64,000 nt of DNA from Cyanidioschyzon merolae (taxonomy: Eukaryota). Shown here piece by piece: positions 1 through 57,330 of this stretch. The stretch lies in the NCBI GenBank assembly GCA_000091205.1, contig AP006494.2; one strand, 5' to 3'. The notes under the pieces were generated by a model. The model made no database searches. It saw only the letters and a list, made by a program, of their open reading frames with translations, and was not told where the DNA came from. Numbering within the stretch: the first letter of the stretch is position 1; every line of letters starts with the position of its first letter. A program made the translations under genes and the position numbers.

Positions 1-1278
1 CTGTTCCACTTCCTTTCAGCGTTTGCAGTGTATCGCGAACGGCAGTACCGCGCGCGGGAAGAGGCGGGCGAAAAAATCGACTGGGATCGCTTTCGTCGCA
101 TTCGGCGATCGTTGCCATTGCCGGTAGCGCGCTTTATCGCAGCTGAGATCCTTGCCGCGCTGGAATTCCTGCATCGCGCGGATATCGTGTACAGAGACTT
201 GAAACCGGAGAACGTTCTAATCGACAATCAAGGGCACATTTGTTTAACGGATTTCGGTCTGGCGCGCGTTCTTGAAGCCGTTCCAGCACATGCTGGCTCT
301 GCTGCTACATTGAGCGGCGACGGTGACCTGGACGCCGCCCACCATATCAAGCCGGGTCGCCACGCAATATCCGACGTCTCGTCTCCATCGTCTTCGTCTT
401 CATCGACGTCGTCGTCGACAACAGCAAGCCCGGACAATTCTTTCGCAGCAGCCCTGGATGGCACCGCCAACGACGACGACGACGACAATGCTGCACCCGA
501 AGGTAAGCACCCCAGCAGCGGCAACGGCAACGAGACGGCATATGTGCGTCAACGAGCGTCGTCGTTCTGTGGAACCAAATCGTATATCTCACCGGAAATG
601 CTCAAGACACGGGCTCGTCTGCTGCATGGATACGGCTTCTCCGTCGACATCTGGGCGTATGGAGTGCTCCTCTATGACATGCTGGTTGGCAGACCACCGT
701 TTTATTCCAGCGATCGGGAGCGCAGCTTTGCGCTTACGATGACGGCGCGTCTGAGTATCCCAGACTTTGTGGATGAGACGAGCGCGGACTTCCTCATGCG
801 TTTGCTGGAGAAGAACGAACGAAAGCGAATCGGTTGCCGTTCTGCGTTTGCGACCGATTTCGACGAGATCAAACGGCACCCGTTCTTTGCGGGAATCGAC
901 TGGAACCTGGTGGAACAGCGCAGATTGCCAGTTCCCCAGGAGATTATGGATGTGCTCCAACTGGGCCCCGACGCGGCACAGAAGGCGAACGTCGACCCGT
1001 CCAGCGTCGAATGGATTGTGCGTAACTTTGATCGCCGCTTCACTGAAAGTGATATGGACTCGCTCATCGCCGCCCTGAACCGCTCATTCGATGAGTCCTC
1101 GCACCCGCTCGGTGTTGGTAGTGCAGTACAGGTGAGTACCAAACAGAGCGATCCAAGTGCCGCACGGCGTAACCGAGCCGGCAGCATTCCCGGCTTTATG
1201 TTTACGTATGAGGTTGCCGCAACCGGTGGAGCGCCCCTGAGCCGAGTGCGCACCGCTGACTCGAAAGCAGCTGCGTGA
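1..1278 (+). CDS. AGC-family Ser/Thr protein kinase, C-terminal portion (5' end lies outside window)
   Basis: Frame 1 is open from nt 1. [18 protein letters not shown] catalytic loop, DFGLA, an approximately 140-aa Ser/Asp-rich insert before [13 protein letters not shown] (APE region), [23 protein letters not shown]-tail [12 protein letters not shown] and a hydrophobic motif GFMFTYEV. Confidence 0.85.
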
Positions 1279-1551
1279 TCGACTTGTGCAGCGCTCTCGA
1301 TCCAAACTTGTTTCTATGTTTTTAGCCCCGTGATGTAAACACACCTGGTAGCCCGTGACGCCATCTAAAACCGCTAGTAGAACACAGCGCAAGCTTTCGT
1401 TCTAGGGGGAATTCCAGGCACGCTGGTTTGTCGCAAGCGCTTGATGCGGCTTCGCTTTGTACGCAGCCGCCGGCTCAGAGCGTCTGCGTTACCGGAATGG
1501 AGAAGAGAACGCTATCGATGCCCAGAGGGAAGAGACTTTACTGTTTCCGTC

Positions 1552-1766
1552 GATGCTTCCGTTTTTACCAGCTCCGTGCCAAAAACTTCCCCAGAACAAT
1601 AAAGGTGTGATCACTCTGACGACTTGCTGAGAACCGCGCCCCTTGCAGGCGCTCGGCGATGCTTCCGTTTTTACCAGCTCCGTGCCAAAAACTTCCCCAG
1701 AACCATAAAGGTGTGATCACTCTGACGACTTGCTGAGAACCGCGCCCCTTGCAGGCGCTCGGCGCT
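1552..1766. repeat. Two tandem copies of a ~107-bp unit (gatgcttccgtttttaccagctccgtgccaaaaacttccccagaac[a/c]ataaaggtgtgatcactctgacgacttgctgagaaccgcgccccttgcaggcgctcggc)
   Basis: Direct visual match of 1552-1658 with 1659-1766, with one substitution. The repeat lies about 280 bp downstream of the kinase stop codon. Confidence 0.85.
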
Positions 1767-3919
1767 GCGCTAGCTGTGCAGTCGCCGTCGACATACCGTA
1801 AGAGGAAGGCGTGGCCATGCCTACACGGGCTGCGCTTCCAGTCTCATCGCCGCGGTACCAGCATGACCTCGTCAACGGCACCGTTGCTACCGAGCGCGCT
1901 CAACGTCATCTCAGCGCTTTCTATGAGTGCACCAAGACAGAGCGGCAGCGATAGGCAATGAGACGGACCTTTCCATGAGGTACAGCACACGGTGCTGTGC
2001 TGCGCGTGGCCTGCATGCTCCCCAAAGACATAACTGGACAGAGGGTTTTTAGCGGCGCCAAGGTACAGCAAAGCACAGCAAAACGAGGCAAGGTACGGCT
2101 CTGTTGCAATGATGCCGAGCGAGCCGCGAAACGCGCTGGGAACGGTACAGTAGGCAAGCGGCGCGCGTGCTCCCCTATGCCCTAGTTATCGTAAAGTAGA
2201 ACACTGAAGTACTCGCTGTGTTCCCGCTTTTCAATTTTTCCAGAGTTGGTCTAGAAATACGGCATAGAAACTCGAAGTTCAGGAATGAATTCGAATGGAC
2301 GACTATGCAAATGTAGAATTCTTGAATGTTTTCTCGGAGTATTGTGTACGATGCTTTGCCACCGGAATTTGTTACGTAATCGTCATGATTCGCGTCGCAC
2401 TCGAACCCGGATTCGTAAAGTAACCGATATCGTTATGCGATGCTTGCGTACTAGCGTCGACTCATGTCCTGGCTGTAGGTGCAGCATGCCCAAATCAAGC
2501 ATTGTATGGAATTCGATCCTTCTGTTGCAAGGCCACTCGAGGCTGAAGCATCTTGCGCCGCCTAGTAGACGAGAAAAGCGAAAATGCTCGACTTCTTCTG
2601 TGAGCGACTTTATGACCTACTCATGCTGATAGCGTACTGAACGTCTCATGCCGAATACTCGATTCTGCTCGAAATACAAACGCTTTACACTGTCTGGTTA
2701 TTGATGAAATCGGAAATGAGCGCAGTATAACCATGCCTCTCACAGGGTATGTCGGTTGGGATCGTCTGTCTTCGGTTTGCACGGAAAATGGTCTTCGAAT
2801 TGCAGTTCAGTGAGCCTAGCGGTCAGTGGCTGTAGAGCGTGCATGTCGCTTCGCCTGAAACGAGCCTAAACGAATCGGAACTCCTCGACTTGATGTCTAA
2901 CCTGAATTTTCCTTACGATATGTGTTTAATCATGGATAACATCGTGTTCCATAAATCCTCTATCGAACGGAAATGCGCACACTTTCGCATATGCAGCGGA
3001 CCGGGCACCTGCCTTGGGGATCGCCTCGAAGAAGTCCTTGATCGTAGGACGCGGCACTCTGTGCGGATACAGAGGAAAACAGCGCTGGGAGCCTTGCGTT
3101 CACGTCAACCGCATGTACCGAGCGATGAAGCGCGCTGTCGTGCGACTCTGGGCGGCGCTCGGAGCCGCAGAAGGTCTAGTGCATCCCTGGGAGCACTTGA
3201 TCGCAGTCACTTGTCACCGCTGGAAAGCGCGCATGGAGACCGTCTGCATAGTAGGCGAAACAGGTGAACGAAACCTGGATCAGAACTTTTGCCTGTGCGA
3301 GGAACCCCCAGAGAACAACCGGAAGCGGCGGAAACGGGCTTTCATGCTGCGATCAGTATCCACGACTGATTCCAACAGAATTTGCGGGATAGGTAGGACC
3401 GGCGTATTCGAAGCGCGAGACAAGGGAGAGGAAAATGAACCGGTCGCAGAAAAAGCTTGCCATGGCTGGTGTTGATGACAATGCTGAGCGAGCCATACGT
3501 CAGTGTGTGTGTGTGTGCGCTCGTGCTATGTGAGAGCGCCCGTCCCACGGTATTCCGACATGAGTGTACGGCATGCAGGACGATACCGGAATGTTTTTTT
3601 CTGCGGTGAGAGGTCGACGCATCGATCCAGGGATCTGTAGCGAGTGCGATGCTCCTGCGTATCGATCGATGCAAACAGTGCGCGGGCCCAGTGCCCCCAG
3701 TGCTCTACGAACCATAGACCAGACTTCACTTTGTGAATAATGGTTTGTTCGCACGACCTTCCCAAGTATAGGTCCTACTGTGAGTGTCTAGAATGGCGCT
3801 AGTCGTAGCAGCAGCACTGCGGGCCGCTGAATGCAGACAGATCGGTTTCACGAGTCCCCGTCTGGCGCCCGCTCGAACGTCGATTCTCATCAGGGAAACG
3901 GATCACTACGGGCGCTATG

Positions 3920-5370
3920 AGATCGGCCTCAGAAGTTTTTGTCTTTCAACTCAGTTTCGTGGCAAGTCTGCTGCGGTGTGCAGTAGGCGGTTGAAATCTC
4001 CATGGAATGTACTGTACCGATCGTAGACGAATCGCCAATAGAATATGTTGTTTGCTGAACAGTGCACGGAGGGTTTCATTTCTCCATCGGATCAGTGATA
4101 CCACAATACCCATATGGTTGAGGAACACTGAACGAAGCAAGTACACGTGGTCTGCATTAAAACAACCGATATTCTCGAAGACTGCGACCTGTTAGTGGTA
4201 TAAACCAACCCACCGGACACGTTCCGGAAAGCGAAATGAACAATAGTAGGCAGCACGGGCGCCGCTTTTCTCAATTGCCTGTTCGCGTGATCCTGAAAAC
4301 ACTGGGATGCAGTCGGAATAAACTTCTGGTTCACGAACGGACATCTTCCACCAAAATCGGAACGAGAGCGTTCTCAGAATGTCGCGGTCGGTATGAAGCA
4401 GAGCATCATCGGTTTGTTTTACCGGTCGATGAGACTCGCTTCGGAAAAAGACGGTCCGAGCGTATATGGGTATTCGTGGCGGGGGCGCCCCCTTCTATGT
4501 ACAATCAAATTCGATGAGGACGATGACATCAACTGTCCTAGATGTAGTGGATTCTAGTGGCGGCCGCAGTTTCGCTCGTAGGCAAGGCTCACACAACAGC
4601 ATCTACATGCTTAAATCATTGAAGACATTTGCCTCTGACGTTTGATCACGTTCGTCCATTGGATATCGAGGCATCTCACTCTTCGCTTTACGTAACTGCA
4701 TTTGCTGCGCGTGCCGGAGGTAGAGCCGGTCTTTTCTTCCCTGTACGCCTAGTGCCTTAACTCCATCGACGGAGCGTTTCCATCGTGAAACGTAATGATC
4801 GCTCTAGTAGGCGAATCGTTGAAGCGTACATCACACGGTGACACGTTGACACATACCGTCTTTTACCAGCAAGTGCTTCTCCCTTTAGGATGGTTCTCAC
4901 CCAGGCACATAAATAAGTGCGTTCATTTTAGAAAAATAAGGGATGAGCTCGGACGTACATTTCAAAAGGTCGAGTTTGAGCAGAGGCAGTGGAGCGCTTC
5001 GGCTATAGAAAACTACGAAGCGCTGACCGAAGAGCAAATGGAAAGGAGGGCGAAAGCTCGTGGATTGCTTGCACCAGTGAGTACAACGAATGATGGCAAG
5101 AAACGTATGGAGTTCGTGAACCGAGACTTTAACGCCGCCATCAATATCAGGAGATGTGCCGTGGTGGAGCATAGACCTCCAGAGTGGACAAGAAGGTGTT
5201 TTGTTGGACAACCTCCCAAAGTCGAACTATATGAGAAAAAATTTGAAGCAGTAGAAGGTGGCCTGTCCCAAAAGACTGCAAGGCATCTGCACGTCAGTTG
5301 GCTACGTTTCCTCCAAGGCGCGTTGCCGCTACTACTGTGCACCGCTGGCGACGTTCGACTTTTGAATGGC
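3920..5370 (+). mobile_element. Composite repeat copy: HTH-like small ORF (4007-4195) plus non-coding segment plus Fanzor/TnpB-like C-terminal fragment; second copy at 29885-30950 (-)
   Basis: Nucleotide-level homology to the reverse complement of about 29885-30950 over more than 1 kb (for example gtatatgggtattcgtgg, gatgaggacgatgacatca and cgtagacgaatcg blocks). The peptide MYCTDRRRIANRICCLLNSARRVSFLHRISDTTIPIWLRN matches MYCIDRRRIVYKNYCLLNSARNTAFLLQVSHTTVFKWLRN on the other copy. Confidence 0.6.
4795..5299 (+). pseudogene. Fanzor/TnpB-like nuclease, C-terminal fragment (zinc-finger remnant plus RuvC-III)
   Basis: EEQMERRAKARGLLAPVSTTNDGKKRMEFVNRDFNAAINIRRCAVVEHRPPEWTRRCFVGQPPKVELYEKK aligns residue-for-residue with the 39354-39740 ORF. 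RDFNAAINIRR is the RuvC-III signature of TnpB/Cas12/Fanzor. The stop codon is lost and the ORF runs on into flanking DNA. Confidence 0.65.
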
Positions 5371-6781
5371 TATTGGCTGCATGGAGCAAACTCGAAAACG
5401 ACGGCGGACGGGATGTTTTCATACCCTCGGCTTTGACTGGAGACAAGCGCTCGCGACTGCCTTTATGCCACCAGAACCACGAGGCTTTTCCGCAGCCGCG
5501 TGCCAACGCGCAACACGTTGGCAGACGGTACAGCCTCGAGCTCGTCGACGGACGCTTTCAGAGCGTCGGCTACAAATGCTATACGTCAGCCGTCGAGAGT
5601 TTCTGTGGCAACTCGCAGCGGGCGCGGCAACGCTGGGCTTTCACAGTGTGAAAAAACCTGTGGCGCCAGCGGCTTCAAACTCGGCACCACCGGCGCCCGT
5701 GAATGGGCGCTTGGCACCACTGGGTGCTATCTTCGACACGATGATCGGCTCTTTTCTACCACCGCGACCTGAGCGACTCTTATCGAGGCGAATTCGGCAT
5801 AAAGGAGCACGCTCTGTTCTCTTGGTCGGGGAGACACACACGGACCGACAACACCATCGGGTGCAACTGGCGTTGCTGGACTCGTTTGTGAAGCATGTTC
5901 GAGGTCAGCGGAATGAGTCGATTGCAGGAGCTCCAATTGCGATCGGCATGGAGCATTTCTATCGGCAGCATCAAGTGCATCTGGATCGGTACATTGCGGG
6001 CAAGATTGAGCTACGACAGTTACTCGCTATTACTCGTTTCGAACTTACCTTTGGGTATAGCGCGCAACTTTGGCAGGATATTTTGGAGTATGCACGGGAA
6101 AACCGTATTCAGGTTGTTGGTCTCAATACTCCGTTCGAATTGGTGCAGCTGGTTGCCCACTACGGCCTGGATCACTTACCAGAACGTTTGTATGAAGTGC
6201 TTCCTCGCGATATGGATGTGCATGGTAATGCTGCACACCGTGAGCGTTTTATTCAGAGGATGAAAGCGTTGGGGGTGGAAGCGCATGGTCCACTCATTAA
6301 CGACGAGGCAGCACTGCAGCGAATGTATGAATCGCAGGTGCTCTGGGACGAATACATGAGCGAATCGGCGGCCTTGTGGCTAGAGCGGAACCCCCGCGGT
6401 CACTTGTGTATTTTTGCGGGTAATGGTCACGTCGAAGGCCGTGTTGGGATTCCAGACCGCCTGACTCGTCGTTCTGGGAGGCCGACCTTCACCGTCGTGC
6501 CGTATACGGTGCCGTTCCAATCAGACGGCTGGCCCGATATACCGCATCCCGGCAACAGAGATGTCGGAGATTGGCTCTGGTACCTGCCTGTAGGATCTGG
6601 GGGTGCCGAATCTGACGAATCGGACCCCAAGTCGCAGCGACAGCAACGGTTCGGGGAGCGTTTCGGCTATCGAATCGCACGCAGTACCGAGTCCGACATG
6701 AGACTGATGGGGCGAGGCGCAGCCAGAACCATTCAGAGAGGTACGCAGACGAAATCTGTGGACGAGCCGGACTGGGTATGA
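5366..6781 (+). CDS. ChaN/Tiki-like (haem-binding uptake / iron-regulated family) protein with twin-arginine-type signal peptide; the true start may be a downstream Met
   Basis: SRREFLWQLAAGAATLGF (RR followed by a hydrophobic h-region) at about 5585-5640, preceded by an approximately 70-aa basic leader. VLLVGETHTDRQHH and a GNGH motif are typical of the ChaN/Tiki/TraB GxxH fold. Confidence 0.55.
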   Translation: MAIGCMEQTRKRRRTGCFHTLGFDWRQALATAFMPPEPRGFSAAACQRATRWQTVQPRARRRTLSERRLQMLYVSRREFLWQLAAGAATLGFHSVKKPVAPAASNSAPPAPVNGRLAPLGAIFDTMIGSFLPPRPERLLSRRIRHKGARSVLLVGETHTDRQHHRVQLALLDSFVKHVRGQRNESIAGAPIAIGMEHFYRQHQVHLDRYIAGKIELRQLLAITRFELTFGYSAQLWQDILEYARENRIQVVGLNTPFELVQLVAHYGLDHLPERLYEVLPRDMDVHGNAAHRERFIQRMKALGVEAHGPLINDEAALQRMYESQVLWDEYMSESAALWLERNPRGHLCIFAGNGHVEGRVGIPDRLTRRSGRPTFTVVPYTVPFQSDGWPDIPHPGNRDVGDWLWYLPVGSGGAESDESDPKSQRQQRFGERFGYRIARSTESDMRLMGRGAARTIQRGTQTKSVDEPDWV

Positions 6782-17599: not shown

Positions 17600-18799
17600 A
17601 AAATAGTGACAGCAAGCACCTGCTCACGGCTTTTCGTACGGTGTGGCCGCCGCAGAAGCCCCGCTCGCCGGCGATGGCAACACACCGGAAACGACACTGG
17701 CCCCCGTGTTTCTCTGGAGTGCTGCTGCTGAGACCCCAATGGGTTCACAGCCAATACCAGCTGTTACAGCGTCCGCGTATTCGGTGTTCGCTGTCTCGAG
17801 CTGGCAGCGCAGTGCGCGAGGAGTACCAGATGGGCCCGTTTCAAGCTGCCCTGCGAGTGCCACGACGGTATTGTCCAGGTTGTCGTGAGGCACTGGGATG
17901 GACAGATTGGGAAATGGGACAGATTTGCCATCTGAGTGACTGCGGCGGCGGCGGCGGCGGCGGCGGGATCTCGACTTTGCGCATCGATCTGCGATCTGGG
18001 ATTTTTTCTCAGATGTCAAAAAGTGCCCAGTGATCAGGGATCCCAGATTGCGGGATGGGTAGGTATTCGTTATCGAAAAAGCGTCCATGATGCTTCACGA
18101 TACCTCCAAGTTCCATTACTTGTGCTTCCGCTAGGATGCACTGGTCGTTTCGTACGTTCTATCGAGCGCTAAGTGTCTGCTTTGCTGCACCCTGCTGAAG
18201 CGTCTACACCGACAGAGCAGATGCTGCGCGGAGACAGCGCGGCGTTGCTGTACCACTGATGACTTCGGCTCGAGGCGCGGTCCATCTGATAAGGGATCAG
18301 GATTCATGATCATTCTGGGATCCAGCGATCTGCGTAGACAGACGCACTGGCTGCGGCAGCGCGAAGCGATATGCTACGAGATAATCGTCATATTGGCGAC
18401 GCCCAGACGCAGTCTAAGTGTACCTGGTCTCGGAATAAACCGCGTTGCCGACGAGTTACTCAGATCTCAATAGAGTACTAGGCACTGGGTGCAGCATGGA
18501 GCACCAGCCTGGCAGACTTGTCCGGCTCGCAGGACATTCCGCCTGGAAGGTAAACGTTCGAAATATGGAAACATTTCCCCCCTTTGAACGTTTACCGTAG
18601 AGGGGAAAGAACATTTTATCCAGTTGGTAGTTAGTCCTTGGTTTATGATCCGTTTTGTACATGGTGCGCTCGAGATGCGCACACCCATATCTGGCAGGCA
18701 TGCGACCTAGCATGTGCATCTCGCCGCTGAGGGGAAACGCGAACCTGATCATGAGCGTATTGCTCTGACTAACAAGATGTATTTGCGTTCAAGGCACAA

Positions 18800-19915
18800 G
18801 AGAGTATGTTTTTCTCAGTTCAATTGTGTGTCAGCTCTCAAGTGAGTGTATTCGAGCGATTTTTCGCGGGTTGTAGCAGAAGCTTTCAAAGTGCGTTGTT
18901 TTGAAAAATAGTCGAGATAAATCGGGAAAAATATGGTTGTAGAAGTGGAGGATCCTGGAGGGCCCCGTATCGCCGGCTGCCGCAAAAAAAAACCGAAGAA
19001 CAGTGCCAACCAAAGAGGAACAACACAGGACCAGGAAGCAAGGCGGCGAGGGCCGACACCAAAACCTGCAGGGAAAACGACAGTACGACGAGATGGAAGT
19101 GAAAGCCTGTCTTTTACGCTGCGTCAAGGATCCGTGCAGGGCAAAGTTGCAAGAGGGCATCAGAAACCGTGTCGATTCGTACTCCAGGAGTATTGGAAAG
19201 GCCTGTTCAGGAATGATGCATGTGGTGAAGGTGATGTGTCGCGACGTGACGGACATCCAAACCGTCGAGGTTCCGGACGAGATTTTCGGCAAGACCTTCA
19301 TTCGTCACCTGATGGTTGGAACAGGGGAAACGTCGAGGAGAAATGAGCGAGTTCGTGCCCTCCACGAAAATTACACCAAATACCGCTCCAACGATACTCG
19401 ATACACGGGAGACTCGCGTATTTACGAATACGGGGCGATCAAGTACCTCACGAACCTGAAGAACCACGTGACCATGAACCTCAAAGGCTTCATGATACGC
19501 TCCGTCTTTGCCCTCGACCCGGAGCTGTCTCGCATAGGGATACGGGCCATCATCGACGGCATCAAGAACGATAGTCGGAATGAACAGGAGATCGAATTTG
19601 CCGACAAGAAGACATCACGCAGAGGAAAGAATGAACCTTCTGGAATCCCTGCGGCTATTCAGGAGCACCGTGCAGACTCGGGGCTTGTCAACCCAGCGGA
19701 TAAAGTATCAGAGATGAAAAAGATGACGAAAGATTTTATCCCCGCGTCCAGCGCTATTCCGTGTTTTTGGAGCGAGAACTCGAACGCCAGGCGGAGATGG
19801 AGCTCACTAGGGGAATACGTGAAGATTCGGAGAAGCGGAAGGCTTTCGTAATGGGTAAGCGCTTCAACGTCATTCCATTATGCAACAGCAAGTAGCACTT
19901 TGTGCGAATCGACGC
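18800..19915 (+). mobile_element. Fanzor-like element, 5' part only (left UTR plus N-terminal about 275 codons), truncated at a junction with an unrelated left-end repeat
   Basis: The 5' non-coding block (ttcaaagtgcgttgtt...) and coding sequence match 37250-38330 of the longer copy. YDEMEVKACLLRCVKDPCRAKLQEGIRNRVDSYSRSI matches YDEMVVKTFLLGHMKDPYKEKLRDAIETRVDSYSKSI, and IKYLTNLKNHVTMNLKGFM matches MKYITNLKNHLTKNLERFM. There is an internal frameshift near 19700. Confidence 0.6.
19093..19915 (+). pseudogene. Fanzor-like N-terminal coding fragment (frameshifted, truncated)
   Basis: Shares a conserved ATG (gagATGgaagtg versus gagATGgttgtg at 37481) and about 55 percent aa identity with the 37481-38330 region. 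The track ORF start at 19003 is a GTG, not ATG. Confidence 0.55.
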
Positions 19916-19917
19916 TA

Positions 19918-20140
19918 GCGTCCTTGAATGCACAAAACGACCAGTGCATCCGAGAACAGGTAATGGAACATGGAGGTAGGGCGCATCATGATGGACGCTT
20001 TCCCAAATGCTTGTACCCAGCTCGCAATCCTGGGTCCCTGGTCAACGTAAACGTTTTTTGAACAAAAATGCCTGAAGCAGCTGCATCGGGACTGCAATGC
20101 TGCCAGTATCGACCTTCGACAGTTGATAACGGAACTGGAG
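19918..20140 (+). repeat. Left-end-type repeat, copy A (solo), family shared with 36900-37080 and 57055-57330
   Basis: Three-way alignment: aaacgacc..ccgagaa..ggtaatg..ggaggtagg[g/t]gc..at[g/c]a[t/c]ggacgctttccc[a/g]aa..cg[c/a]aat[c/t]ctgggatcc[c/a]tgg..aacgt..ttg..aaaaa..., extending to aacggaactgg. Confidence 0.55.
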
Positions 20141-35028: not shown

Positions 35029-37480
35029 CCTTTGGAGAAGTTTGTTGCCTAACCGACCCTACCAAACCAGCTTCAGAAGTCGCGGTTTTGGTCAACTCAA
35101 ACGTGGACTTTGCGTCGTGCTGCGGACAAACCCAGACAGCGCTGGTTGTCGCTTGGCGGTGGCGTCTCGCGGGCGCAGCACGCCGGCGTTGCCGCTGCGG
35201 ATGCTACACTCGAGTCGGATAAAAATCGAGCACAGAATAGCTTTCCATCTCTTCCCAACACTTCATTTATTTCATAGATTTTTCTTAAATGTACAACCTG
35301 AGCGATCGAAGTGCAGCAATGAGAGATGAAGAGATCATGCGTAAATGAAGGATTCTTGGTCGTTTTTTGGAGTGGCTCTTTCGACGCTTTTCCGCTGGAC
35401 CTCGTTACGTCATCACGATGAAGGTGCGTCACCACCGACGTCACCACGCGTGCCCGAAATAACCGATATTATTATCCAGCTCACACGTTCAAGGTTTTAG
35501 CCTTCTCCGATCCTTACGTGCAGTATGCTCTAATTCACGTACCCGTCGAGGTTTCGAGCTTTCTATTTGAAGTCATCTGCTGGGCGCACTCGTTGGCGCC
35601 TATGGATTGACGGGACATATACTCGACGGCGTGCCTCGATGATGTTTCCGCAGGCTCATGCAGAATATGTTATGAGTTTCTCATGTCAACGGATCGATTC
35701 CGTTCCAAACGCGAATCCTCCTCTCTTCGTGGCCATAACTACAACAAAACGCGACAGCAGCATGATTCCTGTAACGGGAGACGCGCCAACAGGCTCCCGC
35801 CTCTTCTGTCTGCACGGAAACGGGTGCCGGATTCGCACCTGAGCCATCACAACGATCGCTTGGAGTGGAACGTGCGCCAATGCTTCGCGTGAAAGGAGTA
35901 TCGACGGATCGAAACTTCTCGACTTGTTTTGCATACCGAGCCTCGCTCCTGATCCTGTTTCCGTAGCGGACAATGTCGCATTCCACAAATCCTCTATCGA
36001 ATAAGACAGCGTGCCGTTGCGCGTGCAGCGCACAGAGTGCTCATCGACGGGATCGCGAAGAAGAAGCTCTTCTTCGTAGGGTATTGCACAGGGCGCGTAA
36101 ACGGAGGAAAGCATCGAGGCGCGCCGCTCTCAACCCGTCCAGGGCAAGTACCGGGCAATGACGCAAGCGTTCACGCGCCACAGATCTACGCTCGAGGAAG
36201 GACGGGGTTTCGTGGACTTCCTGAAACATCTAAGCACATTCAAACGTCATCGTTGCAAAAGACGCACTGTGGCTGTATAAAACGAATAGAAACAACGCAA
36301 ACGAAGCGTACATCGTACCTACTGCTTCTGCGTAAACAACGTCGACAACACCCAGAAGCCCCCACTCGCGACATGCACGTCACCATCAACATCCCGCAAC
36401 TGCTTCCAACGGAGCTGGGGGCAACGGCGAAACCGACGTATTGAACGCCAGCGATAAAAGAGCATATACAAGAGCAATCATCAAAAAACCCGCAAAGACT
36501 TGTGTTGTTGATGAAGATAGAAACCTAGAACTTAGTGTTTACGTCCGAGTTCACGAAATGGACCCATCCCATGGTTCATACGAACATCGCTGCCTAGCGC
36601 AGGCGCTCCGCGAGGATGCGATCATTGCGTGCAGATCGCCTCAGCGAGAGAGCGCCCCATCGAGATGCTCGCCCCAGGGTATATTCTAACAGCCAAGTTT
36701 CTCCAGCGTGTCGTGCAACGAAGACAAGCCTGCATCCGCAGACTGTCCGAGCACAAACTGACGACGAGACCCGATTCTACGTCGGGTGAACCACGCCTCG
36801 AGCCGACGCCCTTTGTGGTATAGCAAAGCCGTTCGAGCTCTATGAACTATCTGCTCCAGCGGTTCAAGCGCAAAGGTGGATGATTAGGGTAGGTACGAGG
36901 CACACACGATAGGACGTATGAAACGACCAAAATATCCGAGAAGAAGTCTAGGTAATGTAACTTGGAGGTAGGTGCTTCATCACGGACGCTTTCCCGAAAG
37001 CCGTTATCCGTTCCGAATTCTAGGATCCATGGTGAATGAAAACGTCTTGTCAATAAAAAAATCGCGCTCAATGGGCGCACCCCGGAGATCGGGCAGTCAA
37101 CTGACGCGATGCGCGTGCCGTTGTTGAAGGGAAACTCAATTGGGATCAGTAACGTGTTGTTCAGCTGTGAACGTCGGATATCGGTTCAGGCCATAGCAAA
37201 GTACAGTCTTTCGGTTCATTTTTGTTTCAAACTTCAAACAAGTCCAGTCAAGTGTTTTTTTGCAGTATATAACAGCAGGGTTCAAAGAGCGTTCTTGTTC
37301 AAAAAAAACTAATAAAAGGAAAACTATGCAAAAGTAAGTCGACGATCCTGGAGGCTCAGTGTCGCCGGCTACCAGAAGAAAACAAAAAACAGTGCCGAGT
37401 CCAGAAGAAAATGAAGAGAAGGAGGACTGAAAGGGGAGGCTCTACGTCGAAGGCGGCAAGAAAGACGACTGTACGACGAG

Positions 37481-39740
37481 ATGGTTGTGAAAACCTTTCT
37501 TCTTGGACATATGAAGGATCCCTACAAGGAAAAGTTGCGAGACGCTATCGAAACACGTGTCGACTCGTACTCGAAGAGTATTGTCAAGGCGTCGTCAGGA
37601 CTGATGCATTTAGCGAGGGACATGTACGAATACGTCGCGCACATGGAAACAGTCGAGATTCCAGACGAGTTTTTCGACAAGACGTTTATTGGTCGCCTGA
37701 TGCTTGGTACAGAGGAAGCGCGGAAGGAAAATGAGCTAGTGCATGCCCTCCACGAAAATTTTGCGGAATTCCGCTTCGAGGGTATTCGAATCAAGGGTGA
37801 CTGGGGTATTTAAGACTCTGGGGCAATGAAGTACATTACGAACCTGAAGAACCATTTGACAAAGAACCTGGAACGCTTCATGAAACGCGCCGTGTTTGCA
37901 CCCTACCCAGGCATCTCTTGCAATGGAAAATGGGCGATTATCCATGGCATCACGAATGATCGAAAGTATGAAGATGAGATCGAATTTGTCGACAAGAAGG
38001 CGTCAAAAGAGAGCACGAAAGAAGCTTCTGCGATCCGCGCGGTTTTACAAGAGCATCGTGCGCGACTGGGGCTGGCGAATCCAACAGGCAAGGTATCAGA
38101 GCTCAAAAAAGATAAGGAGAGATACTATCGCCTCATCCTGCGCTATTTTGTGTTGTTGGACCGTGAACTCGAACGCGAAGCGGAGATGAAGCTGAGTGAA
38201 GAGACAAATGAAGAGTGGGAGAGACGGAAGGCTTTCCTAACGGGGAAGCGCGTCAATGTGGTTCCGTTGGGCAACATCAAGTCACATTTTGTGACTATCG
38301 ACTCCGCAGTCCTTCATGGCATCATGAGGGAGATCAGTCCCGAGTTCGATGTTAGCAGGGAGGAATTCTCCGGTGAAAACCGGGAGACGTACTGGATGAG
38401 CATCTTCGATTTCAAACGTCCCAAAGTGAGCAAGAAAAAGGTATTCACAGGGTCGATCGAAACAGATGGAGTAGCCTTGTGTGTACACTATCGGCGGTTG
38501 AAGAAAGTTCGTCCAACTCCGCCTTCGGCTGCGCCCGTCATGAAGGATGAAGAAAACAAAGAGGAGGTTCCTGTGACGCAGGAGGAGCAGGATGACGACC
38601 TTGTCGTTGGCGTGACGAAGGATGAAGAAAACAAAGAGGAGGATCCTGTGACGCAGGAGGAGCAGGATAACGATTTTGTCGTTGGCGTGACGAAGGATGA
38701 AGATGAGAAGGAGGCGAGTCCTGCGACGCAGGAGGTGGAGAATAACGACTTTATGGTTGACGCGACGAAGCATGAAGAAAAGAAGGAGGCGGATCCTGCG
38801 ACCCACAAAGTGCAGGATAACGACTTTGTCGTTGGCGCGGACCCTGGGAATACGAGTATCATAAACATCGCTGCTCCCAAGCGTGCGGAAGATGGTACTG
38901 ATGGTAACTTACGTCAGAAAGACATGCGTCTGTTGAGGTTCTCGAGAGCCAGATACTATCGAGAATCGGGAATCATAAATGCAAGGAAGAAAATCGAGAC
39001 TTGGAATTCAGGAATGAAAGAGCACCTGGAAGCTTCGAGCGAGGTGACGAGCCGAGGAGCGGACTTTGAAGCTTTTCGGAAATTCACGGAAGTTCGCGTT
39101 GCTCATTGGGAGGCGCCGTGGGAGGAGTATACCAAGCCCCGGTGGGCTCGTTGGCGTATGAATTTGTATTGTGGGAAGCAGCGGGCATTCGCGAATTTTT
39201 TCAATCAACTGAGTGCCCTGAAGGAGAATCAAAGTGAGAGGTTGGTAGTGACGTACGGAGCAGGGCGCTGGATGACCCAAAAAGGAACTACGCCAGCTCC
39301 AACGACGAGAACGTACAAGGAGTGTGCACGGCGTTTTGTTACGATACCTGTAGATGAGTTCCGAACCTCGTATACACACCATGAGCTGGTGTGTACACTT
39401 CAGAGAGTTCGAGATGGAAAAGTGCCAGACGAACCCTGAGGATATGAAAAAGTACGGACCGCTGACGGAGGAGCAAATGGAAAGGAGAGCGAAATTTCGA
39501 GGGCTACTTGCATTAGTAAGTACAACCAGTGATGGCACGAAACGTATGGAGTTTGTGAACCGTGACTTTCATGCCGCTGTGAATATACGGAGATGCACGG
39601 TGCTGGAGAAGAGACCTCCAGAGTGGACAAGAGAGAACTTTGTTGGACAACCTCTCAAAGTCGAACTATATGAGAAAAAGTTGGAAGCAATAATAGGTGG
39701 CCGGTCCAGAAAGGCTGGGACGCATCTGCACGTCAGTTGA
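37481..39740 (+). pseudogene. Fanzor-like nuclease ORF, disrupted by in-frame TAA (37811-37813) and a +1/-2 frameshift in a tgtgt run (about 39387-39397)
   Basis: Three track ORFs (37481-37813, 37826-39439, 39354-39740) concatenate into one protein when aligned to the 19093 and 4795 copies. The TAA replaces a sense codon (GI*DSGAMKYITNLKNH versus YEYGAIKYLTNLKNH). The frame changes exactly where ..HHELVC / CVHFREF overlap. Confidence 0.65.
38543..38840 (+). repeat. Four tandem approximately 75-bp repeats inside the Fanzor ORF encoding 25-aa acidic units (KDEENKEE[V/D]PVTQEEQD[D/N]D[L/F]VVGVT)
   Basis: Read directly from the protein and DNA. The last unit runs straight into the RuvC-I strand [12 protein letters not shown]. 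Confidence 0.75.
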
Positions 39741-39827
39741 TGACGATTTGTATAGCGCGCGTTCGCCGCCACTACTGTACACTGCCAGCGACGTCGTTCG
39801 ACTTTCGAAGGGCGGTGACACAAGACC

Positions 39828-40871
39828 GTGTACATAAACATGTCTCAGTTGGATGACACACACGATCTACTAAACATGGGGGATGCGGGTTCCGGATCGA
39901 AAGAATCAGACTCTGCCTTGAGGCGTGGTGGTGACGTTTCGGGCGGCAAAGCAGCGCCAGTGAACGGTGCCGTGGCTGCTTCCGAAAGCGACAACGCAAG
40001 CAGCAGTAGCGCCGCATTACGTAATAGCAGCGCGTCGTTCCGGGAAGGTCCACCTGGAAGGCCACCTCTATTGAGCCAGAGGTTTACGGTGGCCCGTCAG
40101 CATCTACCGGGTCAGCTGCATGAGATCCTTATGTGGCGGAACAAGTACCGCTCGGGGCTCGCTTTCGCCTTGGGTAACTTGTTCTTCTATTTCACCACGT
40201 TCGGGGAACTGAGCATCATCACCGTATTCTCTATGATCGTGTTTTGGATCGTGCTACTGGGTTCGTGTCTCGTTCTCCTGAGCCGCGCACTGGCGTACCT
40301 GACGTCAGCGAGCCCCGTACCTGGCGCATCACCCGTTGGTACGACGGCACCGACGCGTCGCTTGCTGAACCGAGAAACTGCGGAGCGGCTCACGGAGAGC
40401 ACCATGAAAACGGTTAACGGGTTGGAGAACCTTTTGCGCGACGCAGCGCATTGTCGTGATTGGCAGCTCACCGTGAAGGTGCTCCTTGGCTCCTATCTGA
40501 TCGGCAAACTGGGACCGCTGTTTCTGAATATGTACATGGGATGGCTCATCTTTCTCAGCGTAATGACGTTACCCAAGGTTTACGAATGGAAGCAGCGTGA
40601 CATTGACGATCTCATTCGGGAAATTCAACCCGTTCTCCAGAGCAAGCTCTATGAAGCCGAGGCGCTCATCAAGAATCATATCAGCAGCGTGCTCTCCCAG
40701 ATACCGCCCAAGGTCCACGAGTACTCCGAGATGCTTCGAGCGCAGCTGCGCGCGCTGACGGGCGCATCCGACCGTGCACGAAGCAGCAGCAGCCGCCCGC
40801 CGTTTTCAGCCGGAACCAGTGCCGCAACATCGTCGTCCATGACAACCAGCGCTGAAACAAAGGAAGACTAA
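39828..40871 (+). CDS. Reticulon-like protein (reticulon homology domain)
   Basis: W..KYRSGLAFALGNLFFYFTTFGELSIITVFSMIVFWIVLLGSCLVLLS, then a loop, then VKVLLGSYLIGKLGPLFLNMYMGWLIFLSVMTLPKVYE. Two long hydrophobic hairpins with the conserved GN..F and W motifs of the RHD. Confidence 0.65.
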   Translation: MYINMSQLDDTHDLLNMGDAGSGSKESDSALRRGGDVSGGKAAPVNGAVAASESDNASSSSAALRNSSASFREGPPGRPPLLSQRFTVARQHLPGQLHEILMWRNKYRSGLAFALGNLFFYFTTFGELSIITVFSMIVFWIVLLGSCLVLLSRALAYLTSASPVPGASPVGTTAPTRRLLNRETAERLTESTMKTVNGLENLLRDAAHCRDWQLTVKVLLGSYLIGKLGPLFLNMYMGWLIFLSVMTLPKVYEWKQRDIDDLIREIQPVLQSKLYEAEALIKNHISSVLSQIPPKVHEYSEMLRAQLRALTGASDRARSSSSRPPFSAGTSAATSSSMTTSAETKED

Positions 40872-56531: not shown

Positions 56532-57054
56532 GACTCGTAGCCTGTATTACTACGCTTTCACGAGCTGTTCACGCGTTCACCTGCCCGCGGGGAAACTTTC
56601 TCGCTTCAGGAGCGCAGGGTGCGCTGGCCTCGGCGACTGCCACGCACAGGCGTGTCCCGAGGCGCTACGCTGCGCTCTATCAGGAGACGCTCGCGCGAGT
56701 GCGCGACACTTGCCAGAAACAGTGAGGATAATGATCAAAGACGCACCGCCACGCGTACCACTGACCCTAGAACCGGCTTGCTACTTGGCATAGCGTCCAG
56801 ATCCGTTGTCGAACTGGGGGTCCTGCAATAGACGCTGACGCTGCGCCTCCTCTAACCCTCGCTACTGCGTTGGATGCTTGCTGCCGTCACCTGCGTGCCG
56901 TAACGACACACCGCAAGACTGGGCGGTGCACGAACCAATAGCTCTGGAGACAAGTCTGGGTCGCTATAATCGCACCATCCCCAGGACTTGGTGATGCAAT
57001 GAACAATGAATCCGAAGGCAAGCATTGGTGATTGCTAGCTAGTTAGCTAGCGGA

Positions 57055-57330
57055 TCCTGAAAGTAGGTGCGGCAGCATAATGGACGCTTTTTCAACTACC
57101 AATATCCATGCATTCCGCAATCTGGGATCCATGATCAATGGAAACGTGTTGTCATCGAAAAAGAATCAGCACTAGTGCTGCGGACGTGGCACTGCGATCC
57201 CGTGAACGCATCCAAGAGCGGACGCACCGAGAACGGAACTCTTGGCTTTGGCTGCCGTTGCCGACCGCTGTGGCATACGTTGAAGCGACTGTTTCGGCAC
57301 TTGCAAGGTATATTACAGAAAAGTGCGTTG
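57055..57330 (+). repeat. Left-end-type repeat, copy C (solo, internally shortened), immediately upstream of riboflavin synthase ORF
   Basis: The head (gtaggtgcggcagcataatggacgctttttc..cgcaatctgggatccatgatcaatggaaacgtg) aligns with 36965-37060. The tail (ggtatattacagaaaagtgcgttgtactaaatg) aligns with the Fanzor 5' UTR at 37255-37300 and 18880-18920. Confidence 0.55.

What the first reader, a model, noticed from the sequence alone, without database searches (positions are those of the whole stretch)
38543..38870. Array of 25-aa acidic repeats grafted onto the RuvC-I strand of the Fanzor protein
Four tandem units of about 75 bp encode KDEENKEE[VD]PVTQEEQD[DN]D[LF]VVGVT. Every unit ends with the D-x-D-F-V-V-G segment that, in the last unit, continues as [15 protein letters not shown], the catalytic RuvC-I strand. 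The repeat therefore arose by serial duplication of the RuvC-I leading strand plus an acidic linker. This is an unusual way to grow a REC/linker region, and it could interfere with or regulate the active site. It may also serve as a marker distinguishing this Fanzor lineage.
Basis: seen in the sequence. Interest (0 to 1): 0.5.

Follow-up and report, generated by a model that had tools for sequence, protein, structure and literature searches.

The report
Variable acidic repeat in Fanzor pseudogene
A 75-base segment has been duplicated head to tail four times inside a decayed copy of a known red-alga transposon gene (Fanzor1, family CMe-1A), and it most likely only lengthens a floppy acidic linker just before the nuclease core; this is a real but modest curiosity.

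Summary
Window 38543-38842 contains four in-frame 75-bp units (TRF 3.9 copies, 84% match). The last unit runs directly into the RuvC-I motif [11 protein letters not shown].

The host gene is a copy of CMe-1A, the Fanzor1 element of Cyanidioschyzon merolae described by Bao & Jurka in 2013. It is 82-90% identical to their consensus. An AlphaFold model of a relative matches only solved Fanzor1 structures at the top of the Foldseek list (E 2e-16).

The published consensus has one unit. Across 42 distinct insertion sites from metagenomes, I found 1 to 6 units. One site carries 3 units on one metagenome contig and 5 on another. More distant relatives have no repeat at all.

The extra units appear to be unconstrained:
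- They are predicted disordered (pLDDT about 26-40).
- Their dN/dS is about 0.9-1.1, against 0.22 and 0.49 for the flanking regions.
- Most have lost the glycine of the strand motif (G to D in 62%).

The window copy is itself a pseudogene, with stop codons and two frameshifts. The best reading is a coding minisatellite tolerated in a permissive linker between the WED and RuvC domains. A regulatory role for the acidic array (net charge -26) is not excluded, but nothing here supports it.

The parts
37063..39814 (+). CMe-1A transposon copy, short form. It corresponds to consensus positions 648-3169 and carries three extra 75-bp units.
   Evidence: blastn of the published 3169-bp CMe-1A consensus against the window: consensus 648-2193 matches 37063-38612 at 82.5%, and consensus 2122-3169 matches 38766-39814 at 89.6%. 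Many other copies also begin at consensus positions of about 648-700.
37326..39752 (+). Degenerate Fanzor1 (CMe-1) reading frame, a pseudogene.
   Evidence: tblastn of the 734-aa CMe-1 consensus finds three frame segments. Disruptions: TAA at codon 4 (37335-37337); a frame change between about 37404 and 37440; TAA at 37811-37813; a 1-bp insertion near 39405; and two stops at 39738-39743.
38543..38617 (+). Repeat unit 1 ([25 protein letters not shown]).
   Evidence: It is 94.7% identical to unit 2, which indicates a comparatively recent duplication.
38618..38692 (+). Repeat unit 2 ([25 protein letters not shown]).
38693..38767 (+). Repeat unit 3 ([25 protein letters not shown]). The glycine of the strand motif is replaced by Asp.
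38768..38842 (+). Repeat unit 4, the terminal unit ([25 protein letters not shown]). It is the counterpart of the single unit in the published consensus.
   Evidence: It is 93% identical to the consensus unit, against 81-84% for units 1-3. Terminal units of different copies are each other's nearest neighbours.
38822..38860 (+). RuvC-I motif [13 protein letters not shown]. It contains the true beta-1 strand and the catalytic Asp codon GAC at 38840-38842.
   Evidence: Direct translation. The Asp is invariant in a 121-sequence family alignment. The models place a strand at residues 334-339 of the window ORF (FVVGAD) and, in P0001, at 478-485, the stretch ending just after Asp484.
39344..39370 (+). 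RuvC-II motif IPVDEFRTS. The Glu codon is at 39356-39358.
   Evidence: The Glu is invariant in alignment A7.
39552..39590 (+). RuvC-III motif FVNRDFHAAVNIR. The Asp codon is at 39564-39566. The motif lies in a different frame from RuvC-I and RuvC-II because of the frameshift near 39405.
36770..37052 (-). Inverted fragment of the 5' module of CMe-1A (consensus 4-282, the TE-N2_CMe-like part). It abuts the main copy and is not part of the repeat.
   Evidence: Bao & Jurka state that the 5' 635 bp equals the separate element TE-N2_CMe.

Best explanation
The array is a coding minisatellite inside a decayed copy of the Fanzor1 transposon CMe-1A of Cyanidioschyzon (or a close relative).

A 25-codon block was duplicated in frame, head to tail, presumably by replication slippage or unequal exchange. 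The block comprises the acidic linker that joins the last WED hairpin to RuvC, plus the first six residues of RuvC strand beta-1.

Only the last unit is contiguous with the catalytic Asp-Pro-Gly, and only that unit serves as beta-1. The upstream units simply lengthen a disordered, strongly acidic linker, at about -6 net charge per internal unit.

The site tolerates insertions, so unit number drifts between 1 and 6 among copies and even between versions of one locus. The unit sequences themselves are not under protein-level selection. In this window the gene is a pseudogene, so the array has no protein function here.

Shown: the repeat, the family identity, the copy-number variation, the predicted disorder, the relaxed constraint and the pseudogene state.

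Inferred: the duplication mechanism and the neutrality of array length.
For: - Repeat: TRF finds period 75, 3.9 copies, 84% match.
- Family identity: the copy is 82-90% identical to the published CMe-1A consensus, and the CMe-1 protein with one unit is in the supplement of PMC3627910. Foldseek of the AF2 model (pLDDT 80, pTM 0.76) returns seven Fanzor1 structures on top, E 2e-16 to 1e-13, with Cas12 far behind.
- Ancestral state is one unit: the consensus and the divergent subfamily members P0032-P0034 have one. Relatives at 30-40% identity have no repeat at all.
- Copy-number variation: 67 distinct arrays with 1-6 units lie at 42 distinct insertion sites judged by 3' flank. L015 (5 units) and L040 (3 units) share one site and have almost identical flanks.
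- Several copies have near-identical adjacent units: L029 96%, L042 95%, window u1/u2 94.7%.
- Disorder: the array has pLDDT of about 26 in P0001 and 27-41 in the window ORF. The confident beta-1 strand forms only from the last unit.
- Relaxed constraint: dN/dS is 1.07 for the first unit (CI 0.64-2.04) and 0.87 for the last unit (CI 0.56-1.39), against 0.49 for the upstream 100 codons (CI 0.38-0.61) and 0.22 for the downstream 100 codons (CI 0.17-0.30).
- Degraded strand motif: internal units carry G to D at the strand glycine in 62% and keep DF[VI]VG in 5 of 76, against 18 of 35 terminal units.
- Permissive site: in 118 relatives this linker has a median of 29 aa but ranges from 22 to 133.
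- Pseudogene state.
Against: - First-type units (KDEENKEE...) occupy the first position in many different insertion sites. Arrays of at least two units were therefore carried by elements that still spread, which is compatible with a function.
- Most arrays remain in frame, and all units remain acidic.
- The dN/dS estimates rest on only 25 codons and on pooled, non-independent pairs.
- The 80 loci were chosen by similarity to a six-unit query, so the unit-number distribution is biased towards long arrays.
- No fully intact copy was found among 43 examined, so tolerance by an active protein is inferred, not shown.
- AlphaFold's low confidence is not proof of disorder.
Confidence: 0.72

Rival explanations
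1. The acidic array is a selected regulatory module. In this reading it is a disordered, DNA-mimicking or autoinhibitory tail placed next to the RuvC active site. It would damp or tune nuclease or nucleic-acid-binding activity, with unit number acting as a rheostat.
For: The window array has net charge -26, against +24 for the rest of the repaired protein. Internal units are more acidic than the ancestral terminal unit, at -6.2 versus -2.6. Arrays of two or more units were inherited through transposition. Most arrays stay in frame.
Against: dN/dS is about 1 in the units. Unit number is scattered on the copy tree and varies from 1 to 6. The repeat is absent from the wider family, whose linker is 13% acidic at the median. 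The higher acidity of internal units is explained by descent from one founder unit type. No intact copy was found.
Confidence: 0.13
2. The repeated DFVVG segments would form extra beta-strands that pack against, or compete with, the genuine RuvC-I strand and so alter folding or the active site.
For: Every unit carries a hydrophobic x-V-V-like segment derived from beta-1. The window model shows a four-residue strand at residues 258-261, in unit 1.
Against: That strand lies in a stretch with pLDDT of about 35-40. No such strand appears in the better P0001 model, where residues 379-470 are coil at pLDDT of about 26. The strand glycine is replaced by Asp in 62% of internal units, and Phe is kept in under half. 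The strand part of first units has dN/dS 0.99, against 0.65 in terminal units.
Confidence: 0.04
3. The 75-bp repeat acts at the DNA or RNA level, for example as a cis-element for transposition, transcription or guide-RNA biogenesis. On this view its coding content would be incidental.
For: Synonymous divergence in the units (pS 0.16-0.20) is lower than in the flanks (pS 0.27-0.30). Unit number is variable, as is seen for some regulatory minisatellites.
Against: The array lies in the middle of the ORF, about 1 kb from the 3' end where Fanzor omega-RNAs are encoded (PMC10432273). The one-unit state is ancestral and spread successfully. Total nucleotide divergence of the units is not lower than that of the flanks. 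No structure or motif test was positive.
Confidence: 0.04
4. The array is an assembly artefact, or an expansion private to this one copy.
For: Repeats are prone to mis-assembly. The closest metagenome contig, L002, is chimeric or recombinant downstream of 39150.
Against: Multi-unit arrays occur on dozens of independent contigs from several metagenomes, and unit numbers are consistent within 13 of the 14 flank groups that hold more than one contig. L002 reproduces the same four units at 99-100% identity.
Confidence: 0.02

Closest known systems
CMe-1 / CMe-1A, the Fanzor1 element of Cyanidioschyzon merolae (Bao & Jurka 2013, PMC3627910)
   Same: It is the same family. The window copy is 82-90% identical to the 3169-bp consensus over positions 648-3169. 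It carries the same protein motifs (GADPGNTNI, VDEFRTSYTHHELGCTLQRVEMEKCQ, FVNRDFNAAINIRRC). As described in the paper, it belongs to an old family of about 150 copies, each about 80% identical to the consensus, with no terminal inverted repeats.
   Different: The published consensus protein (734 aa) has a single acidic unit. The window copy has four, and other copies have up to six. The passages of that paper retrieved with the search term 'repeat' (12 of 24 shown) and with 'CMe' do not mention a tandem array. This copy is a pseudogene, and it lacks the 5' TE-N2_CMe-like module in the normal orientation.
Solved Fanzor1 nucleases SpuFz1, GtFz1 and PpFz1 (PDB 8gkh, 9ceu, 9cer, 9cf1; PMC10432273, PMC11423790)
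   Same: The overall fold is shared (Foldseek E 2e-16 to 1e-13; TM 0.5-0.69 on the target). The RuvC Asp-Glu-Asp triad is present. Lineage-specific insertions are known in this group: PpFz1 has an insertion of about 100 aa, the FRI domain, in RuvC.
   Different: Sequence identity is only 13-15%. SpuFz1 has a CCCC zinc finger, which this family lacks. The PpFz1 insertion is a folded domain inside RuvC that binds cyclophilin. The array here lies upstream of beta-1, is tandemly repeated, is predicted disordered and varies in length between copies.
Disordered N-terminal extensions of Fanzor2 proteins: NlovFz2 with 96 aa and MmeFz2 with 61 aa (PMC10432273)
   Same: These are eukaryote-specific disordered additions to a TnpB-like core.
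   Different: They are terminal rather than internal, and they are not tandem repeats. No copy-number variation has been reported for them.
Coding minisatellites (in-frame variable-number tandem repeats), for example in fungal cell-wall genes (from my own knowledge, not checked here)
   Same: The period is a multiple of three. Unit number is variable between paralogues and alleles. Such repeats usually lie in disordered or linker regions.
   Different: Here the host is a transposon-encoded nuclease gene that is mostly decayed, and no phenotype is linked to unit number.

Membership tests
CMe-1A transposon family (Cyanidioschyzon merolae) | Nucleotide similarity to the published 3169-bp consensus at the level typical of the family (copies are about 80% identical to the consensus). 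| tested here: met
   Consensus 648-2193 matches the window at 82.5%, and consensus 2122-3169 matches at 89.6%. The consensus sequence was taken from supplement 2 of PMC3627910.
CMe-1A transposon family (Cyanidioschyzon merolae) | The host genome is Cyanidioschyzon merolae. | tested here: inconclusive
   The window is eukaryotic, has about 55% G+C and carries long uninterrupted ORFs. Exact look-ups of four window proteins found nothing on record. The organism is therefore inferred only from the transposon match.
Fanzor1 (eukaryotic TnpB-like RuvC nuclease) | RuvC-I Asp at the end of strand beta-1 (h-h-G-x-D-x-G). | tested here: met
   VVGADPG is present, with Asp at 38840-38842. The Asp is invariant in 121 sequences.
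Fanzor1 (eukaryotic TnpB-like RuvC nuclease) | RuvC-II Glu followed by [TS]-[TS]. | tested here: met
   VDEFRTS is present, with Glu at 39356-39358. The Glu is invariant.
Fanzor1 (eukaryotic TnpB-like RuvC nuclease) | RuvC-III R-D motif (NRDxNAAxNI). | tested here: met
   FVNRDFHAAVNI is present, with Asp at 39564-39566, but it is out of frame with the rest because of the 1-bp insertion near 39405. There is a sub-threshold Pfam PF07282 hit on this motif in relatives, at E 0.09-0.23.
Fanzor1 (eukaryotic TnpB-like RuvC nuclease) | C4 zinc finger between RuvC-II and RuvC-III (the motif of Bao & Jurka; a CCCC finger in SpuFz1). | tested here: not met
   The window and the CMe-1 clade have only THHELxC...EKC, that is two His and two Cys. 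The wider family consensus, DEFRTT...VRGLLWCxST...KFVNRD, has no CxxC pairs. The authors who defined Fanzor nevertheless list CMe-1 as Fanzor1. I keep that assignment on the strength of the fold and the catalytic triad, and I flag the deviation.
Fanzor1 (eukaryotic TnpB-like RuvC nuclease) | Three-dimensional fold like solved Fanzor1 structures. | tested here: met
   Foldseek against the PDB returns SpuFz, PpFz and GtFz at ranks 1-7, E 2e-16 to 1e-13. The next hit is Cas12o at E 3.5e-3. The model is of the relative P0001 (77% identical to the window ORF in alignment A5) with pLDDT 80.
Fanzor1 (eukaryotic TnpB-like RuvC nuclease) | Omega-RNA encoded at the 3' end, and RNA-guided DNA cleavage. 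| tested here: inconclusive
   RNAalifold on the last 220 nt of 21 copies gave a weak consensus (-7.2 kcal/mol). There are hints of small hairpins with a swapped pair and two alternative terminal hairpins. Activity cannot be tested with these tools.
Fanzor1 (eukaryotic TnpB-like RuvC nuclease) | Intact reading frame, that is a functional gene at this locus. | tested here: not met
   The ORF has a stop at codon 4, a stop at 37811-37813, two frame changes and an early double stop.
Coding minisatellite (in-frame variable-number tandem repeat) | Head-to-tail units of 10-100 bp whose period is a multiple of three. | tested here: met
   The period is 75 with no indels.
Coding minisatellite (in-frame variable-number tandem repeat) | Unit number varies between copies and between versions of one locus. 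| tested here: met
   There are 1-6 units over 42 insertion sites. L015 and L040 share a flank but have 5 and 3 units.

The most novel reading that the evidence does not exclude
The acidic array could be a selected, length-tunable autoinhibitory or nucleic-acid-mimicking tail sitting immediately before the catalytic strand of a Fanzor nuclease. Gains and losses of units would then adjust how dangerous the transposon's nuclease is to its host. That would be a built-in rheostat not described for any TnpB, Fanzor or Cas12 protein.
Probability: 0.07. Interest if true: 0.6.

Novelty: new variant of a known kind. Interest (0 to 1): 0.3.

Why it matters
The transposon family and its Fanzor1 protein have been known since 2013, so the gene itself is not new. 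The new point is that many copies carry an in-frame, length-variable acidic repeat that starts inside the first RuvC strand. The published consensus shows only a single unit.

Two practical consequences follow. First, the WED-to-RuvC junction of Fanzor1 tolerated insertions of 25 to 125 extra residues in elements that still spread, which marks it as a possible insertion site for engineering compact RNA-guided nucleases. Second, consensus building and short-read assembly under-report such arrays.

If array length turned out to modulate nuclease activity, it would be a new kind of self-regulation for this nuclease superfamily. The present evidence points to neutral drift instead.

Tried and rejected
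- Pfam scans of the window ORFs gave nothing. Scans of relatives gave only sub-threshold PF07282 hits.
- A sequence-profile search of the PDB gave no hit at E up to 10. Only the fold comparison connected the family to Fanzor.
A single-protein query was used instead, which biases the sample towards long arrays.
- Exact look-ups of four window proteins to name the host genome found nothing.
- L002 was first taken as an independent paralogue sharing the four-unit array. It is 99.5% identical to the window up to about 39150 and only about 80% identical after that. It is therefore the same locus with a chimeric or recombinant 3' part, and I did not count it as independent.
- The long ORFs on the minus strand across the array (38282-38806 and 38488-38880) were rejected as genes. 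They overlap the repeat on the strand opposite the CMe-1 reading frame that matches the published protein. They were not searched separately.
- A microhomology origin for the first duplication was examined by eye. The TGGCG copies lie 71 bp apart, not 75, so this was dropped.
- An intron reading was rejected. The array is in frame and is translated in all homologous proteins.
- RNAalifold on the element's 3' end gave no convincing consensus.
Full report
**Observation.** Tandem Repeats Finder reports a single strong array at 38542-38837, with period 75, 3.9 copies, 84% matches, no indels and score 389. The unit-end motif occurs three times within 3 mismatches, where shuffled sequence gives none. 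In register, the four units are 38543-38617, 38618-38692, 38693-38767 and 38768-38842. They encode [75 protein letters not shown] and [25 protein letters not shown]. The last unit continues as PGNTSI. Units 1 and 2 differ at 4 of 75 bases, while all other pairs are 77-80% identical.

**The host gene.** The array lies in a long frame that is broken in several places:
- The start ATG is at 37326 and is followed by TAA at codon 4.
- The frame changes between about 37404 and 37440.
- There is a TAA at 37811-37813.
- A one-base insertion lies near 39405.
- A double stop sits five codons before the normal end.

The local Pfam copy finds nothing. A database search found 35 relatives, all from JGI metagenomes, carrying the weak label DUF8286.

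The literature search then identified the family. [quoted passage not shown] It has about 150 copies, each about 80% identical to a consensus of about 3 kb. It has no terminal inverted repeats, and its 5' 635 bp equal a separate element, TE-N2_CMe. Their supplementary CMe-1 protein carries the same motifs as the window. Their 3169-bp consensus aligns to the window at 82.5% (consensus 648-2193 to 37063-38612) and 89.6% (consensus 2122-3169 to 38766-39814). The window copy is thus a short-form CMe-1A element spanning 37063-39814. By inference, the window comes from C. merolae or a close relative. I could not confirm the organism directly.

**Is it a Fanzor?** An AlphaFold2 model of the relative P0001 has mean pLDDT 80 and pTM 0.76. 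P0001 is 752 aa, has four units and is 76-77% identical to the window protein. Foldseek against the PDB puts seven Fanzor1 structures first (SpuFz, PpFz and GtFz; E 2e-16 to 1e-13). The next hit is a Cas12 at E 3.5e-3.

The three RuvC residues are present in the window: Asp at 38840-38842, Glu at 39356-39358 and Asp at 39564-39566. The RuvC-I Asp and the RuvC-II Glu are invariant, and the RuvC-III Asp nearly invariant (at least 90%), in a 121-sequence alignment.

One defining feature of Fanzor and TnpB is not met. SpuFz1 and TnpB have a CCCC zinc finger. This clade has only two His and two Cys at that place, and the wider family has no CxxC pairs at all. The wider family is large, with 6511 cluster representatives at E up to 0.001.

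**Where the repeat sits.** In the P0001 model, the WED hairpin is at strands 351-358 and 362-370. It is followed by residues 379-470 at pLDDT of about 26 with no secondary structure, and then by the RuvC beta-1 strand at 478-485, which ends at the catalytic Asp484. The duplicated block is therefore the WED-to-RuvC linker plus the first six residues of beta-1, stopping one residue short of the catalytic Asp.

A second model was made of the window's own 537-aa ORF. It shows the same picture: residues 230-325 are below pLDDT 50, and the true strand is at 334-339. One four-residue strand is called at 258-261, in unit 1, but within a stretch at pLDDT of about 35-40 that I do not trust.

**Variation among copies.** The published consensus has one unit. 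So do the most divergent members of the clade, P0032-P0034. Relatives at 30-40% identity have no recognisable unit. One unit is therefore the ancestral state.

A metagenome scan returned 80 loci. Of these, 71 span both anchors and give 67 distinct arrays:

| Units | Distinct arrays |
|---|---|
| 1 | 11 |
| 2 | 13 |
| 3 | 17 |
| 4 | 13 |
| 5 | 7 |
| 6 | 6 |

Grouping by 3' flank gives 42 distinct insertion sites that again span 1-6 units. Contigs that share a flank agree on unit number in 13 of 14 groups. The exception is L015 (5 units) against L040 (3 units), whose flanking sequence is almost identical. The sample is biased towards long arrays because the query had six units.

Nearest-neighbour analysis of the units gives three results:
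- First units resemble the first units of other copies (the KDEENKEE type, 91-97% identical).
- Last units resemble other last units.
- Several copies have adjacent units that are 91-96% identical (L029, L042, L076, and the window's u1/u2).

A two-unit architecture is thus old and was carried through transposition, while middle units keep being gained. The copy tree is star-like, and unit number is scattered across it.

**Constraint.** Pooled Nei-Gojobori estimates, with a bootstrap over codons, are as follows:

| Region | dN/dS | 95% CI |
|---|---|---|
| 100 codons downstream of the array | 0.22 | 0.17-0.30 |
| 100 codons upstream of the array | 0.49 | 0.38-0.61 |
| Terminal unit | 0.87 | 0.56-1.39 |
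| First unit | 1.07 | 0.64-2.04 |

Within units, the strand part scores 0.65 in terminal units but 0.99 in first units. Terminal units keep Phe (91%), Val (94%) and Gly (89%) of the strand. Internal units have Leu or Phe at the first of these positions, and Asp replaces Gly in 62%. The extra copies of the strand segment are therefore not maintained as strands.

None of the 43 copies examined has a complete reading frame. The best is L001, which is open from consensus residue 11 to 699 and has four units, but its start region is frameshifted.

In 118 diverse relatives, the same linker has a median of 29 residues but ranges from 22 to 133. It is thus a naturally permissive site.

**Interpretation.** The simplest account is a coding minisatellite in a permissive, disordered linker. 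It arose by in-frame duplication, was carried along by elements that still spread, and has drifted in length since. I give this 0.72.

The main rival is that the array has a function as an acidic tail. The array is strikingly acidic: the window's 100 residues carry net charge -26, against +24 for the rest of the protein. Internal units average -6.2, against -2.6 for terminal units. However, the neutral substitution pattern, the scattered unit numbers and the absence of the repeat from relatives argue against a function, and the extra acidity traces to one founder unit type. I give this rival 0.13.

A DNA- or RNA-level role also gets 0.04, and an artefact gets 0.02.

**Novelty.** The gene family is already known. 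I found no description of the variable tandem array in the held literature, and the published consensus does not show it. Solved Fanzor1 proteins do have lineage-specific additions. One example is the roughly 100-residue folded FRI domain of PpFz1. Others are the disordered N-terminal tails of some Fanzor2 proteins. None of these is a tandem, length-variable insertion at the first RuvC strand. I class the finding as a new variant of a known kind, of modest interest.

Noticed in passing
window 39595-39814, and the 3' ends of loci L011-L082 (alignment A6): The extreme 3' end of CMe-1A exists in two sequence variants, and each can form its own terminal hairpin: CGTTCGA-CTT-TCGAACG, or CGTTTTTC-TTTT-GAAAGACG. 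A small hairpin just after the stop codon shows a CG/GC swap at one pair (9 versus 8 sequences). This could be a right-end or omega-RNA structure in an element described as lacking terminal repeats. The overall RNAalifold consensus was weak.
   Followed up: partly
window 39356-39566; alignments A3 and A7: This Fanzor1 branch lacks the CCCC zinc finger that is part of the original Fanzor/TnpB motif and is present in SpuFz1. The branch is large, with 6511 cluster representatives at E up to 0.001. The CMe-1 clade has only HH...C...C at that place, and the wider family consensus is DEFRTT...VRGLLWCxST...KFVNRD.
   Followed up: partly
window 36770-37052 (minus strand), abutting the element start at 37063: An inverted fragment of the TE-N2_CMe-like 5' module (consensus 4-282) lies directly upstream of the main copy, which itself starts at consensus 648. 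Many metagenome copies also start at consensus positions of about 648-700. A short form without the 5' module therefore seems common.
   Followed up: partly
window 18012-19925 and 19926-20057: A second CMe-1A copy (consensus 2-1895, 80% identity) is truncated about 220 bp before the repeat site. It is followed immediately by an inverted piece of the 5' module (consensus 8-144).
   Followed up: no
window 4943-5370 and 57044-57157: Two further CMe-1A fragments are present. One is the last 430 bp of the element (84% identity), ending right at the start of a 471-aa ORF (5366-6781). The other is a 5' end piece (consensus 1-107) on the minus strand.
   Followed up: no
L015 (5 units) and L040 (3 units): These two contigs share the same insertion site and have nearly identical flanking sequence, but they differ by two near-identical units ([25 protein letters not shown]). 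This is a direct case of recent repeat-number change at one locus.
   Followed up: yes
L002 against window 37564-39790: The metagenome contig L002 is 99.5% identical to the window up to about 39150 and only about 75-87% identical after that. It is either a chimeric short-read assembly of two element copies or a recombinant.
   Followed up: yes
window 38001-40000: This stretch has strong purine excess on the plus strand (GC skew 0.21, AT skew 0.17), against values near zero for most of the rest of the window. It coincides with the element's coding strand and the acidic repeat.
   Followed up: no
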